In this document: positions 19,179-24,512 of the stretch, in pieces | Numbering within the stretch: the first letter of the stretch is position 1 | Layout of the letters: every line of letters starts with the position of its first letter | DNA from: an uncultured archaeon | GTDB taxonomy: Archaea; Asgardarchaeota; Lokiarchaeia; Sigyniarchaeales; Promethearchaeaceae | Assembly: GCA_964426185.1 (NCBI GenBank) | Contig: CAYRPF010000014.1 | Span: forward strand, 1 to 32,000 | Reading direction: 5' to 3' | DNA: 32,000 bases | Made by a program: the position numbers and the translations under genes | The notes under the pieces: model-generated | Told to the model about the DNA's origin: nothing | The model's database searches: none | What the model saw: only the letters and a program-made list of their open reading frames with translations

Positions 19179-22100
19179 TTGTTGCTGAAATTTCGAAAAA
19201 GAATTAGAATTGCTTTAATTTTTAGTGTCCTTCTTATTCCCACCTTTGTGCTTTTTAATGTTCTTCCAAATCAAAACGAATCGTCAGAAACGAATCCAAA
19301 TTTCAATCGAAATTCATTCTCCAAATTTAAAACTTCTGCAACGCCAAATAGAGTGTATGTGGATCCAAGAATCGAAGAATTAATGCATGATTCATCAACT
19401 TATAGTGATAGGCTTGATGTTCTTTTGTTTTTTAACTATAAAATTCATGATTATTCAGATCTCTCTCGATTGGGAACTATAAAAAATAAATATTCTTTGA
19501 TTAATGGATGTAAATTCGAAACGTCCCTTCAATATATAAACAATTTATGCTCACTTCCACATATTCAATCAATTTGGTGGGATACTCCAATTGTTCTTCC
19601 TAAATCTGAAAAAGAAGCTGATAAAATTCCACAAAATATCCGAGAACCCCTTCTTTATTCTAATGAAAATTCATTTGTAAATTTTACAGAGGAAATTCAT
19701 GCCCAACAATTATGGAAAGAGGATATCACCGGAAAAGGGATAGTTATTGCAATTTTAGATTCAGGAGTGGATATCTCCGGATCTGGTGGCGGAGATTTAG
19801 ATGATTTAGATGACAATTCGTCGACTTCAGATCCCAAGTTTTTAGGAGGAGTTTCCATGGTTCCTGATGAGCCTTTATACTATACAGATTTGACTGGAAG
19901 AGGTACATTTCATGCAGGAATTGCTTGTGGAACGGGCAGAATCAACTCAAATTATATAGGAGTGGCACCTGGAGCCAATTACTTAAATGTTAAGATTTTT
20001 GATTCTTTAGGCATTACATACTGGTCTTTTATGATATCTGGAATAGAATGGTCGATTGAGCATGGCGCGGATGTCATACTATTTGTATCAACCATTCCAG
20101 GATTTTATTTGGATCCTGTATCTCAAATGGTAAATGCTGCAGTTGATCGAGGTGTTATTGTAGTTGCGCCTGTTGGAGACGATGGGCCATCTTATATGAG
20201 CATCAATACACCTGCTCAAGCAAATCATGCACTCTCTGTTGGTGCTTATGATTCTACCACTCAAACTGTGTGGAGCCACTCCAGTCGTGGACCTTCCTAC
20301 GATTTTCATGTGGGACCGGATATCATCGCCCCTGGAGTAAATCTTATTGGTCCTCGTGCTCGATATTTAACTAACGAAAGTGTAAATTTAGCCATAAATT
20401 TCATCAGTCAATTATCACCTGAGATGTCTCTTGCACTTTCTTCTCAAATGAATGGCTTACAACAAGAGCTTTTTATGATTTCCGACTCGATTCCAAAATC
20501 GCAATTTGGAAATCCCCTTTCTCCCGAATCAAATTATACACGTGCTTCAGGAACGGGTGCTGCCGCTGCAGTCTGTGCTGGAGGGATTGCGTTATTACTT
20601 GAAGCTTTTCCATTGGCTACTCCGGTAATGATTCAGCAAGCACTTCAACGTGGAGCTCACACTATTTCTCAATCATCTGATATTAATATAGAAGGCAGTG
20701 GTTTAATCGATCTATGGGCTTCATTTCAATGGATGAGAGATATATTCGGAGAACAAACCCAAAAATTAAAGAGTTCCTCCGTTCCTCTTTTTTATTCAGG
20801 AATTGTAACTAATAAAGATCTTAATAATGTATCTCAATATAGCATTGATTTAAACTATTCTAACTTAGAAAATTATGATTCTGCGGTGATGGTGAGTTCT
20901 CAATTAATGAGCACAGCATTATTGGTTAGTGACCTTAACGAAAGTGATCCTTTAGATGTTCAGAACTTGGCATTCCACTTTCCCCTTAATCAATTTGGAA
21001 TTACTTATGAAATAAGTTCAAATTCCGATTCTCGTGAATTTCATTGGTTTTCCGAGTTTAATGTAGTGAAAGAATTGCATGAAATGGTGAATTCAATTGT
21101 ATATCCTGATGGATACCGGCGTTATGTTAGTGTGCTTGAATATGATGGGCTTTATGTGGCTTGTGAAATCGAATCGTGGGCTTATTTAGGAGAATTTAGT
21201 GATGAGATCTCCACATTCAATTTTACCAGTCCATTAACCCACGAGTCTTATTATACTTCTCTTAATTTTACTACACTTTCTTTGAATCATCGCTTGAATG
21301 CCTATAAAATATCTTTTCATTTTATTAATGATCGGTCTGATCACCAGAATTTAGACAATATTTCGCTGATATCTTTCATGAAGGCTGATTTGTTTGCTAA
21401 TGAAACAGGTATTTTAGGCTCTTTCAACTATAAAAAAGATGGAGGGATAAATTTTGGAGATGGTGGAGATAATGGAGATATATCTGATTTTATCCAAGAT
21501 GATGCTGTGCAGTTTGATCCATCAACGCAGATGATTTGGGTGGAAGATCTCGATAATTCATCTCTTGATACTGGAGATCCCAATTATAATGCCATGGGTT
21601 TTACTTCTTATTCTCACAATCTTTCTGCTTTTTCACTTGGAGATAGTTTTAACCTTTTGGTAAATATCTCCCAGCATCCTTTTTCGCCTACCACATGGAA
21701 TTTTTCTCTCTCGGAATCTGCCAATTATTCTTCCTTCAATAGTTCAAACTCTCATTGCGATCCGAGTTTTGCCCAGCAATATTTTCTTGACAATTTAACT
21801 TATGGAGGTACATTGGAATTTAATGGTGCTTTATCTGTTTCTGAAGCTTCCACATTGCAAGAATGTCGCAATAAAGTGCGTCAGAATGCATTTTTGCTTC
21901 AATCAAATACCACCAAATACAATATTACAGATCTTCTAATACTTTCCTCAAATTTTGCCCGAATCCATGAACCAGATGTTCCTTATAAATCTCAAGTTAA
22001 AATTCTTAATATGGGAACCAAGACTCCTCCCAACACTCAATTAGTTTTTTATGCCAATCGAACACTAAGTTCTGGGGAAGTAGAAATGTTTTCGCGAATC

Positions 22101-24512: not shown

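What the first reader, a model, noticed from the sequence alone, without database searches (positions are those of the whole stretch)
19680..24290. Architecture and motifs resemble eukaryotic Site-1 protease (MBTPS1/SKI-1)
Seen: prodomain-S8-spacer-alpha/beta domain-TM-tail. From recollection of S1P, the S8 part shares unusual features: GTF after the His site, ITYWSF vs VSYTSWF, and G.DGP.Y..IN.PA vs GNDGPLYGTLNNPA. The distal domain (about 22749-23810) is collinear with the S1P GIFT (GldG/IFT52-like) domain: RVWFDATH vs RVLWDQYH, GNFHDL vs TNFRDM, DPEQAFTQEE vs DSEEEYFPEE, TNLPSLNQLL vs ANIPALNELL, and GKVLAIGD vs GRIVLYGD. Inference: this may be an Asgard relative of the SREBP/ATF6-processing protease lineage, and so a candidate eukaryotic signature protein.
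Basis: partly seen in the sequence, partly recalled or inferred. Interest (0 to 1): 0.8.

Follow-up and report, generated by a model that had tools for sequence, protein, structure and literature searches.

The report
Dead subtilase–GIFT protein of ABC-2 operon
This 1777-residue Asgard archaeal membrane protein has the same domain order as the eukaryotic site-1 protease, but its protease domain has lost the catalytic residues and its gene always sits in an ABC-2 transporter operon, so it is most likely a non-catalytic transporter accessory and not an SREBP-type protease.

Summary
The ORF 19179-24512 (+) is real and the described architecture holds. In order it has a signal anchor, an I9-like prodomain, a subtilase (S8) domain, a ~520-aa beta-rich insert, a P-like beta-sandwich, a GIFT domain, a second beta-sandwich, a TM helix and an 80-aa helical tail.

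Two facts change the reading. First, the S8 domain is catalytically dead. Asp194 is kept, but His is Arg241, the oxyanion Asn is Asp334 and Ser is Gly460. None of 39 homologues has the His and 34 of 39 have Gly at the Ser position, yet this domain is the best-conserved part. Second, in all six loci examined the gene follows two ABC ATPases and two ABC-2 permeases and precedes a 2-TM microprotein.

The S8 domain is nearest to archaeal Tk-SP and the subtilisins; S1P is outside the best 60 solved sequences. The GIFT fold is confirmed. It matches IFT52 best (Z 22.4), then S1P (Z 18.9) and OST48 (Z about 18). By sequence profile IFT52 scores E 2e-12 and S1P 0.08.

The family is a monophyletic dead branch of a wider Asgard S8-GIFT radiation that also has intact-triad members. 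A direct S1P clade could not be tested, because no S1P sequences could be brought into the tools. Other first-stage notes of this scan reached the same pseudoprotease/ABC-2 reading on this same stretch.

The parts
13708..14781 (+). ABC ATPase 1 (357 aa, DrrA/GldA-like)
   Evidence: Pfam ABC_tran E 3.6e-26. NCBIfam best hits are drrA and GldA_ABC_ATP, both below their cut-offs. An equivalent gene is adjacent in all related loci, sometimes inverted.
14788..15975 (+). ABC-2 permease 1 (395 aa)
   Evidence: Pfam ABC2_membrane_3 E 1e-19. It has TM1, a ~165-aa external loop, then five TMs. It is conserved in all six loci.
15882..17198 (+). ABC-2 permease 2 (listed as 438 aa; the true start is probably near 15972, as in the 408-aa homologue of L001)
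   Evidence: Pfam ABC2_membrane_3 E 1.8e-15. Conserved in all six loci.
17236..19176 (+). Long ABC ATPase 2 (646 aa), with an unassigned ~250-aa N-terminal extension
   Evidence: Pfam ABC_tran at aa 267-410, E 1e-29. The extension has no Pfam or PDB sequence match. A 564-646-aa homologue lies directly upstream of the S8-GIFT gene in all six loci.
19179..24512 (+). Whole pseudo-subtilase-GIFT gene (1777 aa, TTG start 3 nt after the upstream stop)
   Evidence: ORF. An identical 1777-aa database protein and about 39 homologue clusters of 1519-1810 aa exist.
19209..19265 (+). N-terminal hydrophobic segment (aa 11-29), either a signal anchor or a signal peptide
   Evidence: Kyte-Doolittle mean 2.56, preceded by KFRKRIR. 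The model predicts a helix at aa 2-27.
19350..19583 (+). I9-like prodomain (aa ~58-135)
   Evidence: The AF2 model has four strands and helices at pLDDT about 80. The top Foldseek hits are the prodomain-bearing ProN-Tk-SP and unprocessed pro-subtilisin E.
19671..20753 (+). Subtilase (S8) fold without a catalytic triad (aa 165-525): D194 kept (19758-19760), His->R241 (19899-19901), Asn->D334 (20178-20180), Ser->G460 (20556-20558)
   Evidence: Pfam S8 E 3.7e-34. VIA Z is 42.2 to Tk-SP. It is the most conserved region of the protein.
20856..22433 (+). Beta-rich insert of ~520 aa between the S8 and P-like domains (aa ~560-1085)
   Evidence: The AF2 model is mostly beta strands. There is a weak CARDB hit at aa 918-1002. 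Its folds were not assigned.
22434..22745 (+). P-like / jelly-roll-like beta-sandwich (aa ~1086-1189)
   Evidence: VIA alignments to S1P (residues 190-607), Tk-SP and Vpr run from model residue 166 to 1180 as one rigid body. In the C-terminal model, S1P 565-616 aligns to aa 1150-1196.
22746..23813 (+). GIFT domain (aa 1190-1545)
   Evidence: Pfam DUF4350 and IFT52_GIFT are both above their cut-offs. The family profile against the PDB gives IFT52 E 2e-12. VIA gives IFT52 Z 22.4, S1P Z 18.9 and OST48 Z about 18.
23814..24158 (+). Membrane-proximal beta-sandwich (aa ~1546-1660)
   Evidence: AF2 strands at model residues 398-509, pLDDT 80-90. OST48/WBP1 alignments extend through it, about 300 aa over two domains.
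24213..24269 (+). C-terminal transmembrane helix (aa 1679-1697)
   Evidence: Hydropathy mean 2.29 and a long helix in the model. An equivalent segment was found by hydropathy in five of the six other homologues checked, but not in P0033.
24270..24509 (+). Conserved cytoplasmic helical tail (aa 1698-1777) ending FG..IGE.Y
   Evidence: Two long helices in the model. R1750, G1774 and E1775 are invariant and F1769 is nearly invariant.
24523..24753 (+). 2-TM microprotein (76 aa) directly downstream
   Evidence: ORF and two TMs. A 63-76-aa 2-TM ORF with a shared ...G...(F/W)(R/K)KE end follows the gene in L001, L003, L004, L005 and L006.

Best explanation
The gene encodes a large, probably N-glycosylated, extracytoplasmic membrane protein. 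It is anchored by an N-terminal signal anchor and a C-terminal TM helix. Its subtilase domain is a conserved pseudo-protease, that is, a binding or scaffold module and not an enzyme. Its membrane-proximal GIFT domain plus beta-sandwich resembles the GIFT modules of GldG, OST48 and IFT52.

I read it as the accessory, outward-facing subunit of a heteromeric ABC-2 machine made of two different ATPases, two different permeases and a 2-TM microprotein. The arrangement is the same in kind as the GldA/GldF/GldG system of Bacteroidota.

Inferred mechanism:
- ATP-driven movements of the ABC-2 core are coupled to the pseudo-protease/GIFT ectodomain. The coupling would run through the TM helix, the conserved cytoplasmic tail (possibly docking on the long ATPase's extra N-terminal domain) and the large external loops of the permeases.
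- The ectodomain holds or presents an exported or surface substrate (peptide, glycoprotein or glycan) in the retained but inactive substrate cleft.
- The uncleavable prodomain probably stays attached.

Shown: the fold assignments, the loss of catalytic residues, strong conservation, monophyly of the dead clade and operon conservation. Inferred: physical association with the transporter, the ligand, and the direction of coupling.
For: - Dead triad: alignments to Tk-SP and BPN' give His->Arg, Asn->Asp and Ser->Gly. In 39 family members the Asp is 39/39. The His position is R33/S2/I/V/K/D with no His at all. The Ser position is G34/T2/S2/A1. The Asn position is D33/N6. The nearest S8s outside the family keep D/H/N/S.
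- Constraint: the S8 region is the most conserved part, with 0.6-0.7 identity to the reference against 0.2-0.4 elsewhere.
- Phylogeny: the dead groups C and D form one clade (SH-aLRT 100) and the His-less group D has support 99. Both are nested among intact archaeal S8s.
- Operon: ATPase, ABC-2 permease x2, long ATPase, S8-GIFT and a 2-TM ORF occur in the window and in L001, L003, L004, L005 and L006, while the other flanking genes differ. The sister-group locus L010 also has an ABC-2 permease and ATPases adjacent.
- GIFT fold: Pfam, profile against the PDB and VIA Z 22.4.
- Topology: terminal hydrophobic segments flank the ectodomain. N-glycosylation sequons number 34 against 21.9 +/- 4.1 expected.
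- Both permeases have ~150-aa external loops.
- Precedent from established knowledge: subtilase pseudoproteases such as CspC act as receptors, and NCBIfam CspC_non_triad hits part of this domain. GldG is a GIFT protein with terminal TMs that works with GldA and GldF (Hunnicutt, Kempf and McBride 2002; cited from memory, not read here).
Against: - There is no direct evidence of a physical complex or of any substrate.
- Pfam ABC_transp_aux (the GldG family) is below its cut-off (22.9 against 34.7 bits), and NCBIfam GldG/GldF/GldA models are not met. This is therefore an analogy in kind, not orthology.
- Two sister-group loci (P0135 and the intact-triad P0259) lack ABC genes next to them.
- The ~520-aa insert and the ATPase extension have no assigned fold.
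- The two halves were modelled separately, so S8-GIFT packing is unknown.
Confidence: 0.6

Rival explanations
1. The protein is a true evolutionary relative of eukaryotic S1P/MBTPS1. On this reading the S8, P-like, GIFT, TM architecture was inherited by eukaryotes from an Asgard S8-GIFT protein, and this family is a degenerate paralogue of that stock.
For: - The domain order matches that published for S1P.
- S8 plus the P-like domain superpose on S1P as one body (Z 37.4, 377 aa).
- The GIFT domain has Z 18.9 and 19% identity to S1P, the highest identity among the GIFT matches.
- The S1P cluster is the nearest named non-Asgard cluster by language-model features (0.87).
- Related Asgard S8-GIFT groups keep an intact D/H/N/S and are 930-1300 aa long.
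- Pfam MBTPS1_4th reaches its cut-off in ORFs of 18 of 301 Asgard genomes and in none of 14 control genomes.
Against: - By sequence the S8 domains of this family and of the intact Thorarchaeota group are nearest to Tk-SP and the subtilisins. S1P is outside the best 60 solved sequences.
- The GIFT domain scores IFT52 > WBP1 > S1P, and bacterial DUF4350/DUF6421 models match best in the Atlas.
- The MBTPS1_4th hits are partial and no stronger than the DUF4350 or ABC_transp_aux hits on the same proteins.
- S8-GIFT fusions also occur outside Asgard, for example in Bathyarchaeia.
- The GTF motif arose inside the dead clade; groups A and B have GTA and GTH.
- Beta domains that follow S8 in the same position are common (Tk-SP, Vpr, KP-43).
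Confidence: 0.15
2. It is still an active peptidase that uses a rewired site, for example Asp194 with the nearly invariant His245 and Ser457 or Thr459.
For: D194 and S457 are invariant and H245 and T459 are nearly invariant. The S8 domain is under strong constraint.
Against: - S457 and T459 occupy positions that are also conserved in ordinary subtilases, where they are not the nucleophile.
- The canonical nucleophile and general base are lost together with the oxyanion Asn, in stepwise fashion across the clade (DHDA, then DRDG). That pattern is typical of pseudoenzymes.
- No known subtilase works this way (established knowledge).
Confidence: 0.04
3. It is a free-standing surface, adhesin or cell-envelope structural protein. 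On this reading the neighbouring ABC-2 transporter only exports something unrelated, or exports this protein's ligand, without forming a complex.
For: The ectodomain is large, sequon-rich and rich in beta-sandwiches. Some sister-group genes lack adjacent ABC genes.
Against: The gene order is strictly conserved, with 3-nt to short spacings, in six loci whose other flanks differ. The cytoplasmic tail is conserved. GIFT domains are recurrently linked to ABC-2 systems, as in Pfam ABC_transp_aux.
Confidence: 0.13
4. The C-terminal module is an OST48/WBP1-type subunit that works in N-glycosylation.
For: The best Foldseek PDB hits are OST48/WBP1 over ~390 columns, covering GIFT, the second domain and the TM region (E 2e-12). 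VIA Z is about 18 over 300 aa. The profile hit to WBP1 has E 0.0096.
Against: - No OST genes are in the conserved cluster.
- WBP1 homologues reported in Asgard are confined to Heimdallarchaeia (PMC10307638).
- IFT52 matches the GIFT core better.
- The rmsd of ~14 A shows that the two domains are oriented differently.
Confidence: 0.05

Closest known systems
Eukaryotic site-1 protease (S1P/MBTPS1/SKI-1; PDB 8uw8, 9csd)
   Same: Both have the order prodomain, S8, P-like beta domain, GIFT domain, single C-terminal TM and cytoplasmic tail. The GIFT motifs around DPE..F..EE, N(L/I)P.LN.LL and G(K/R)(V/I)...GD align.
   Different: - The catalytic His, Ser and oxyanion Asn are replaced here.
- A ~520-aa insert lies between the S8 and P-like domains, an extra beta-sandwich follows GIFT, and the helical tail is 80 aa long.
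- The S8 domain is closer in sequence to Tk-SP and subtilisin.
- The Pfam MBTPS1 domain models are not met.
- The gene is part of an ABC-2 operon.
GldG with GldA/GldF (the ABC-2 transporter plus GIFT accessory protein of Bacteroidota gliding)
   Same: A GIFT-domain ectodomain lies between N- and C-terminal hydrophobic segments, and the gene sits beside ABC-2 permease and DrrA/GldA-like ATPase genes.
   Different: - None of the GldG, GldF or GldA models is met.
- The transporter here is heteromeric, with two ATPases and two permeases.
- The accessory protein carries a pseudo-subtilase and about 900 extra residues.
- The host is an archaeon.
Tk-SP (Thermococcus kodakarensis subtilisin-like protease; PDB 3afg, 9ues)
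   Same: It is the best sequence and structure match of the S8 domain (93 bits; Z 42.2, 2.1 A, 32% identity). It also has a prodomain and a C-terminal beta-jelly-roll.
   Different: Tk-SP is an active secreted protease without a GIFT domain or a TM helix.
CspC-type subtilase pseudoproteases and PCSK9
   Same: Both have a subtilase fold that is kept for binding or signalling and not for cleaving external substrates. NCBIfam CspC_non_triad and CspBA partly hit the domain.
   Different: They are unrelated in lineage and context, and the hits fall far below the cut-offs.
IFT52 and OST48/WBP1 GIFT modules
   Same: IFT52 is the best match of the GIFT core (E 2e-12; Z 22.4). OST48 matches GIFT, the second domain and the region up to the TM.
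   Different: Neither of those proteins has an S8 domain or a link to an ABC transporter.

Membership tests
Site-1 protease (S1P/MBTPS1) | Catalytic Asp/His/Ser triad plus the oxyanion Asn (D218, H249, S414, N338 in human S1P; PMC11231238) | tested here: not met
   The states are D194, R241, D334 and G460. In the family 0 of 39 have the His and 2 of 39 have the Ser.
Site-1 protease (S1P/MBTPS1) | S8 domain closer to S1P than to other subtilases | tested here: not met
   By phmmer, Tk-SP scores 93 bits, subtilisins 50-66 bits, and S1P is outside the best 60. The same holds for aa 268-352 alone. Structural identity is 22% to S1P against 32-33% to Tk-SP and BPN'.
Site-1 protease (S1P/MBTPS1) | Domain order S8, P-like, GIFT, TM, short tail | tested here: met
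   VIA aligns S8 plus the P-like domain to S1P 190-607 (377 aa, 3.0 A) and the P-like end plus GIFT to S1P 565-874 (Z 18.9). There is an extra ~520-aa insert and an extra beta-sandwich.
Site-1 protease (S1P/MBTPS1) | Pfam MBTPS1-specific domain models (MBTPS1_4th, MBTPS1_3rd) above the gathering score | tested here: not met
   MBTPS1_4th scores 15.7 bits over 34 residues against a cut-off of 27, and no other MBTPS1 model is listed at E<=1. There is no hit in the window's own genome or in its GTDB family.
Site-1 protease (S1P/MBTPS1) | Forms a clade with eukaryotic S1P in S8 and GIFT phylogenies | not testable with these tools
   No eukaryotic S1P sequence could be obtained.
Peptidase S8 (subtilase) fold | Pfam PF00082 above its cut-off, and a subtilisin fold | tested here: met
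   118.8 bits against a cut-off of 21.8. Z is 37-42 at 1.9-2.2 A.
GIFT / DUF4350 superfamily | Pfam DUF4350 or IFT52_GIFT above its cut-off, and a GIFT (GATase1-like) fold | tested here: met
   DUF4350 scores 39.9 against 30.4 and IFT52_GIFT 30.1 against 27.2. The profile against IFT52 gives E 2e-12. Z is 22.4 over 206 aa at 2.8 A.
GldG-type accessory protein of ABC-2 transporters | Encoded next to ABC-2 permease and ATPase genes | tested here: met
   This holds in the window and in five related loci whose other flanks differ.
GldG-type accessory protein of ABC-2 transporters | Matches the GldG family models (Pfam ABC_transp_aux; NCBIfam GldG) | tested here: not met
   ABC_transp_aux scores 22.9 against a cut-off of 34.7. 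No NCBIfam model hits aa 1150-1777.
OST48/WBP1 | GIFT N-domain, second lumenal domain and C-terminal TM, with sequence membership in the OST48 family | tested here: inconclusive
   Foldseek E is 2e-12 over ~390 columns, but with rmsd about 14-16 A. VIA Z is about 18. The profile E is 0.0096. No Pfam OST48 hit is listed.

The most novel reading that the evidence does not exclude
The Asgard S8, P-like, GIFT, TM proteins form one superfamily. It includes intact-triad groups of ~930-1300 aa in Thorarchaeota, 'Asgardarchaeia' and Hermodarchaeota, and the dead, ABC-2-linked groups that include this gene. On the most novel reading, this superfamily is the prokaryotic stock from which the unique architecture of eukaryotic site-1 protease was inherited. 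That would add a Golgi/ER regulated-proteolysis enzyme to the eukaryotic signature proteins of Asgard origin. It would also link its GIFT domain historically to ABC-2 transport machines.
Probability: 0.15. Interest if true: 0.8.

Novelty: new variant of a known kind. Interest (0 to 1): 0.55.

Why it matters
The finding corrects a tempting annotation.

It defines a conserved six-gene Asgard module that was not found described in the paper library searched. The module has two ATPases, two ABC-2 permeases, a giant pseudo-subtilase-GIFT protein and a 2-TM microprotein.

It shows a stepwise decay of a subtilase active site within one clade, from D-H-N-S through D-H-D-A to D-R-D-G. That is a clean case of pseudoenzyme evolution.

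It also shows that the S8-P-like-GIFT-TM architecture exists in archaea, in both intact and dead forms, although in eukaryotes it is known only from S1P. This makes the origin of S1P a question that can be tested by phylogeny. The data here do not yet support a specific Asgard-S1P clade.

Tried and rejected
- **S1P sequences for a phylogeny.** Three large searches returned no eukaryotic S1P (the S8 region of P0001; the C-terminal profile against 1.84 billion representatives; the intact-triad P0259). The control genomes of the genome search are prokaryotic and gave nothing. No S1P-inclusive tree was therefore possible.
- **Ranking S1P among solved structures.** S1P never entered the 60 rows shown, for P0001, for P0304 or for the motif-rich segment aa 268-352. 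Only an upper bound on its score is known.
- **Long ATPase N-terminal extension, prodomain, insert and post-GIFT region.** Pfam at E<=10 gave nothing except a weak CARDB hit, and a PDB sequence search of the ATPase extension also gave nothing. The TrmB-like idea from another first-stage note was therefore neither supported nor excluded.
- **NCBIfam GldA/GldF/GldG models.** None was met.
- **ESCRT-II/Vps4 neighbourhood.** I considered it as functional context and rejected it. It is kept only in the close relative L001/L002 and not in L003-L006.
- **Pseudogene or sequencing-error explanation for the dead site.** Rejected, because the substitutions are shared by 39 homologue clusters in uninterrupted ORFs.
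- **ESM Atlas fold search.** The 628-aa C-terminal model gave only TM 0.3-0.4 by query length, because the query has several domains.
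Full report
**What is there.**
- The finding lies inside one uninterrupted ORF, 19179-24512 on the + strand. It is 1777 aa long and starts 3 nt after the stop of the upstream gene.
- Pfam finds Peptidase_S8 at aa 185-494 (E 3.7e-34). At aa 1356-1541 it finds DUF4350 (E 7e-10) and IFT52_GIFT (E 3.3e-7), both above their cut-offs.
- ABC_transp_aux, the GldG family, is below its cut-off. MBTPS1_4th gives only a 34-residue match of 15.7 bits.
- The window is Asgard archaeal. 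ESCRT-II (EAP30, Vps25) and Vps4 genes lie downstream, and homologues are named Lokiarchaeota, Promethearchaeota or Hodarchaeales.

**Anatomy.** Two AlphaFold models, built with family alignments, have mean pLDDT 76 and 78. Combined with hydropathy they give this order:

| Part | Residues |
|---|---|
| Signal anchor | 11-29 |
| I9-like prodomain | ~58-135 |
| Subtilase fold | 165-525 |
| Beta-rich insert (weak CARDB hit) | ~560-1085 |
| Beta-sandwich | ~1086-1189 |
| Second beta-sandwich | ~1546-1660 |
| TM helix | 1679-1697 |
| Two-helix cytoplasmic tail, conserved C-terminus | 1698-1777 |

The ectodomain is enriched in N-glycosylation sequons, with 34 against 21.9 +/- 4.1 in shuffles.

**The protease domain is dead.**
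- Residue-level alignments to Tk-SP and subtilisin BPN' show the catalytic Asp kept (D194). The His is replaced by Arg241, the oxyanion Asn by Asp334 and the Ser by Gly460.
- This is a family trait. Thirty-nine homologue clusters of 1519-1810 aa share the architecture.
  - Asp is 39/39.
  - The His position is R33, S2 and one each of I, V, K, D, with no His at all.
  - The Ser position is G34, T2, S2, A1.
  - The Asn position is D33, N6.
- The next-nearest S8 proteins keep D/H/N/S.
- The dead domain is the most conserved part of the protein, so it is a constrained pseudoenzyme and not a decaying gene.

**A wider radiation.**
- A profile of the C-terminal module found 3496 proteins in 1.84 billion representatives. 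Of 139 top hits outside the family, 42 also carry an S8 domain.
- With a further search, four Asgard grades appear:
  - Group A is ~930-1000 aa, from Thorarchaeota, 'Asgardarchaeia' and Lokiarchaeota, with an intact D-H-N-S.
  - Group B is ~1240-1300 aa, with an intact site and a C-terminal zinc ribbon.
  - Group C is ~1365-1460 aa, from Jord-, Hel-, Freya- and Lokiarchaeia, with D-H-D-A.
  - Group D is this family, with D-R/S-D-G/T.
- In S8 trees C+D is one clade (SH-like and SH-aLRT 100) and D has support 99. Both are nested among intact archaeal S8s. Group A lies apart.
Group A has GTA and group B has GTH.
- S8-GIFT fusions also occur outside Asgard, for example in Bathyarchaeia.
- In a sample of 301 genomes of the phylum, 22 have the C-terminal module at E<=1e-30. 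The core family occurs only in the window's own GTDB family (5 of 6) and in one genus of the neighbouring family.

**Context.**
- Upstream on the same strand lie an ABC ATPase, two ABC2_membrane_3 permeases and a 646-aa ABC ATPase.
- The same set, with a 564-646-aa ATPase directly before the S8-GIFT gene, is present in five related loci down to 41-45% S8 identity. Their other flanks all differ.
- A 63-76-aa 2-TM ORF follows the gene in all six loci.
- One group C locus also has ABC-2 genes adjacent. Another group C locus and a group A locus do not.
- The ATPases are DrrA/GldA-like, but no NCBIfam model is met.
- Each permease has a ~150-aa external loop.

**Comparison with S1P.**
- Published S1P consists of prodomains, S8 (187-478), a P-like subdomain, a GIFT subdomain (617-998), a TM and a short tail, with D218/H249/N338/S414 (PMC11231238). 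The domain order is therefore shared.
- Structurally, S8 plus the ~1086-1189 sandwich superpose on S1P 190-607 as one body (Z 37.4, 377 aa, 3.0 A). Tk-SP (Z 42.2), Vpr and KP-43 do the same with their own beta domains, and identity is 22% for S1P against 32-33% for Tk-SP and the subtilisins.
- The GIFT domain matches IFT52 best (Z 22.4), then S1P (Z 18.9, 19% identity) and OST48 (Z about 18 over two domains).
- By sequence profile the order is IFT52 E 2e-12, WBP1 E 0.0096 and S1P E 0.078.
- S1P never enters the best 60 solved sequences. This holds for the protein, for an intact Thorarchaeota relative whose best hit is Tk-SP at 188 bits, and for the motif-rich S8 segment.
- In the ESM Atlas fold search the module is nearest to bacterial DUF6421/DUF4350 and GATase1-like models, an Asgard stand-alone GIFT cluster and IFT52.
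- Two observations point the other way. A language-model search ranks the eukaryotic S1P cluster third, at 0.87, after two Asgard clusters and ahead of all other S8 clusters (a lead only). Pfam MBTPS1_4th reaches its cut-off, partially, in ORFs of ~700-1440 aa in 18 of 301 Asgard genomes, none in this family's lineage and none in the controls. On the relatives scanned, that model scores no better than DUF4350 or ABC_transp_aux.

**Interpretation.**
- The inference of an SREBP/ATF6-type protease lineage fails for this protein on its defining feature, catalysis. The S8 and GIFT sequence affinities do not support it either.
- The best-supported reading is a non-catalytic pseudo-subtilase-GIFT ectodomain protein that serves a heteromeric ABC-2 machine. 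It is like GldA/F/G in kind but is not an orthologue.
- Architectural homology between the Asgard S8-GIFT superfamily and S1P is not excluded. I put it at about 15%. It needs a phylogeny that includes S1P, which these tools could not provide.

**Literature.**
- No paper in the searched library links Asgard archaea with GIFT domains, and none of the listed S1P papers mentions Asgard.
- Asgard WBP1/OST48 homologues are reported only for Heimdallarchaeia (PMC10307638).

**Earlier notes of this scan.** Other first-stage notes on this same stretch reached the pseudoprotease and ABC-2 readings. I had reached both from tool results before reading them.

Noticed in passing
window 24523-24753 (+): A 76-aa ORF with two TM helices lies 11 nt after the S8-GIFT gene. 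Equivalent 63-74-aa 2-TM ORFs with a shared C-terminal ...G...(F/W)(R/K)KE motif follow the gene in L001, L003, L004, L005 and L006. It is probably a sixth subunit of the module.
   Followed up: partly
window 17236-17985 (+): The long ABC ATPase has a ~250-aa N-terminal extension with no Pfam or PDB sequence match. Its length class (564-646 aa) is conserved in every locus. It is a candidate docking site for the conserved cytoplasmic tail of the S8-GIFT protein.
   Followed up: partly
L011-L014 and proteins P0260-P0338 (other Asgard genomes): A large Thorarchaeota/'Asgardarchaeia'/Lokiarchaeota family of ~930-1000-aa S8-GIFT proteins has an intact D/H/N/S. A few members marginally reach the Pfam MBTPS1_4th cut-off. 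They are better candidates for S1P-like active proteases than the window's gene.
   Followed up: partly
window 27137-30096: An ESCRT-II (EAP30/Vps22-36-like and Vps25-like) plus Vps4 cluster is present. It is kept next to the operon only in the close relative L001/L002, so the proximity looks incidental.
   Followed up: no
window 14788-15975 and 15882-17198: The two permease ORFs overlap by 94 nt as listed. The homologue in L001 is 408 aa against 438 aa here, so the second permease probably starts near 15972.
   Followed up: no
window 24854-26029 (+): A 391-aa protein has an N-terminal zinc ribbon and a long, charged C-terminal region that looks like a coiled coil. It is also downstream in L001/L002 but not in the more distant loci. 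Group B S8-GIFT proteins carry a zinc ribbon fused at their own C-terminus.
   Followed up: no
representative-search hits P0126, P0127, P0129 (3484-3632 aa): These giant proteins each have about eight tandem GIFT-like stretches. Their origin is unknown.
   Followed up: no
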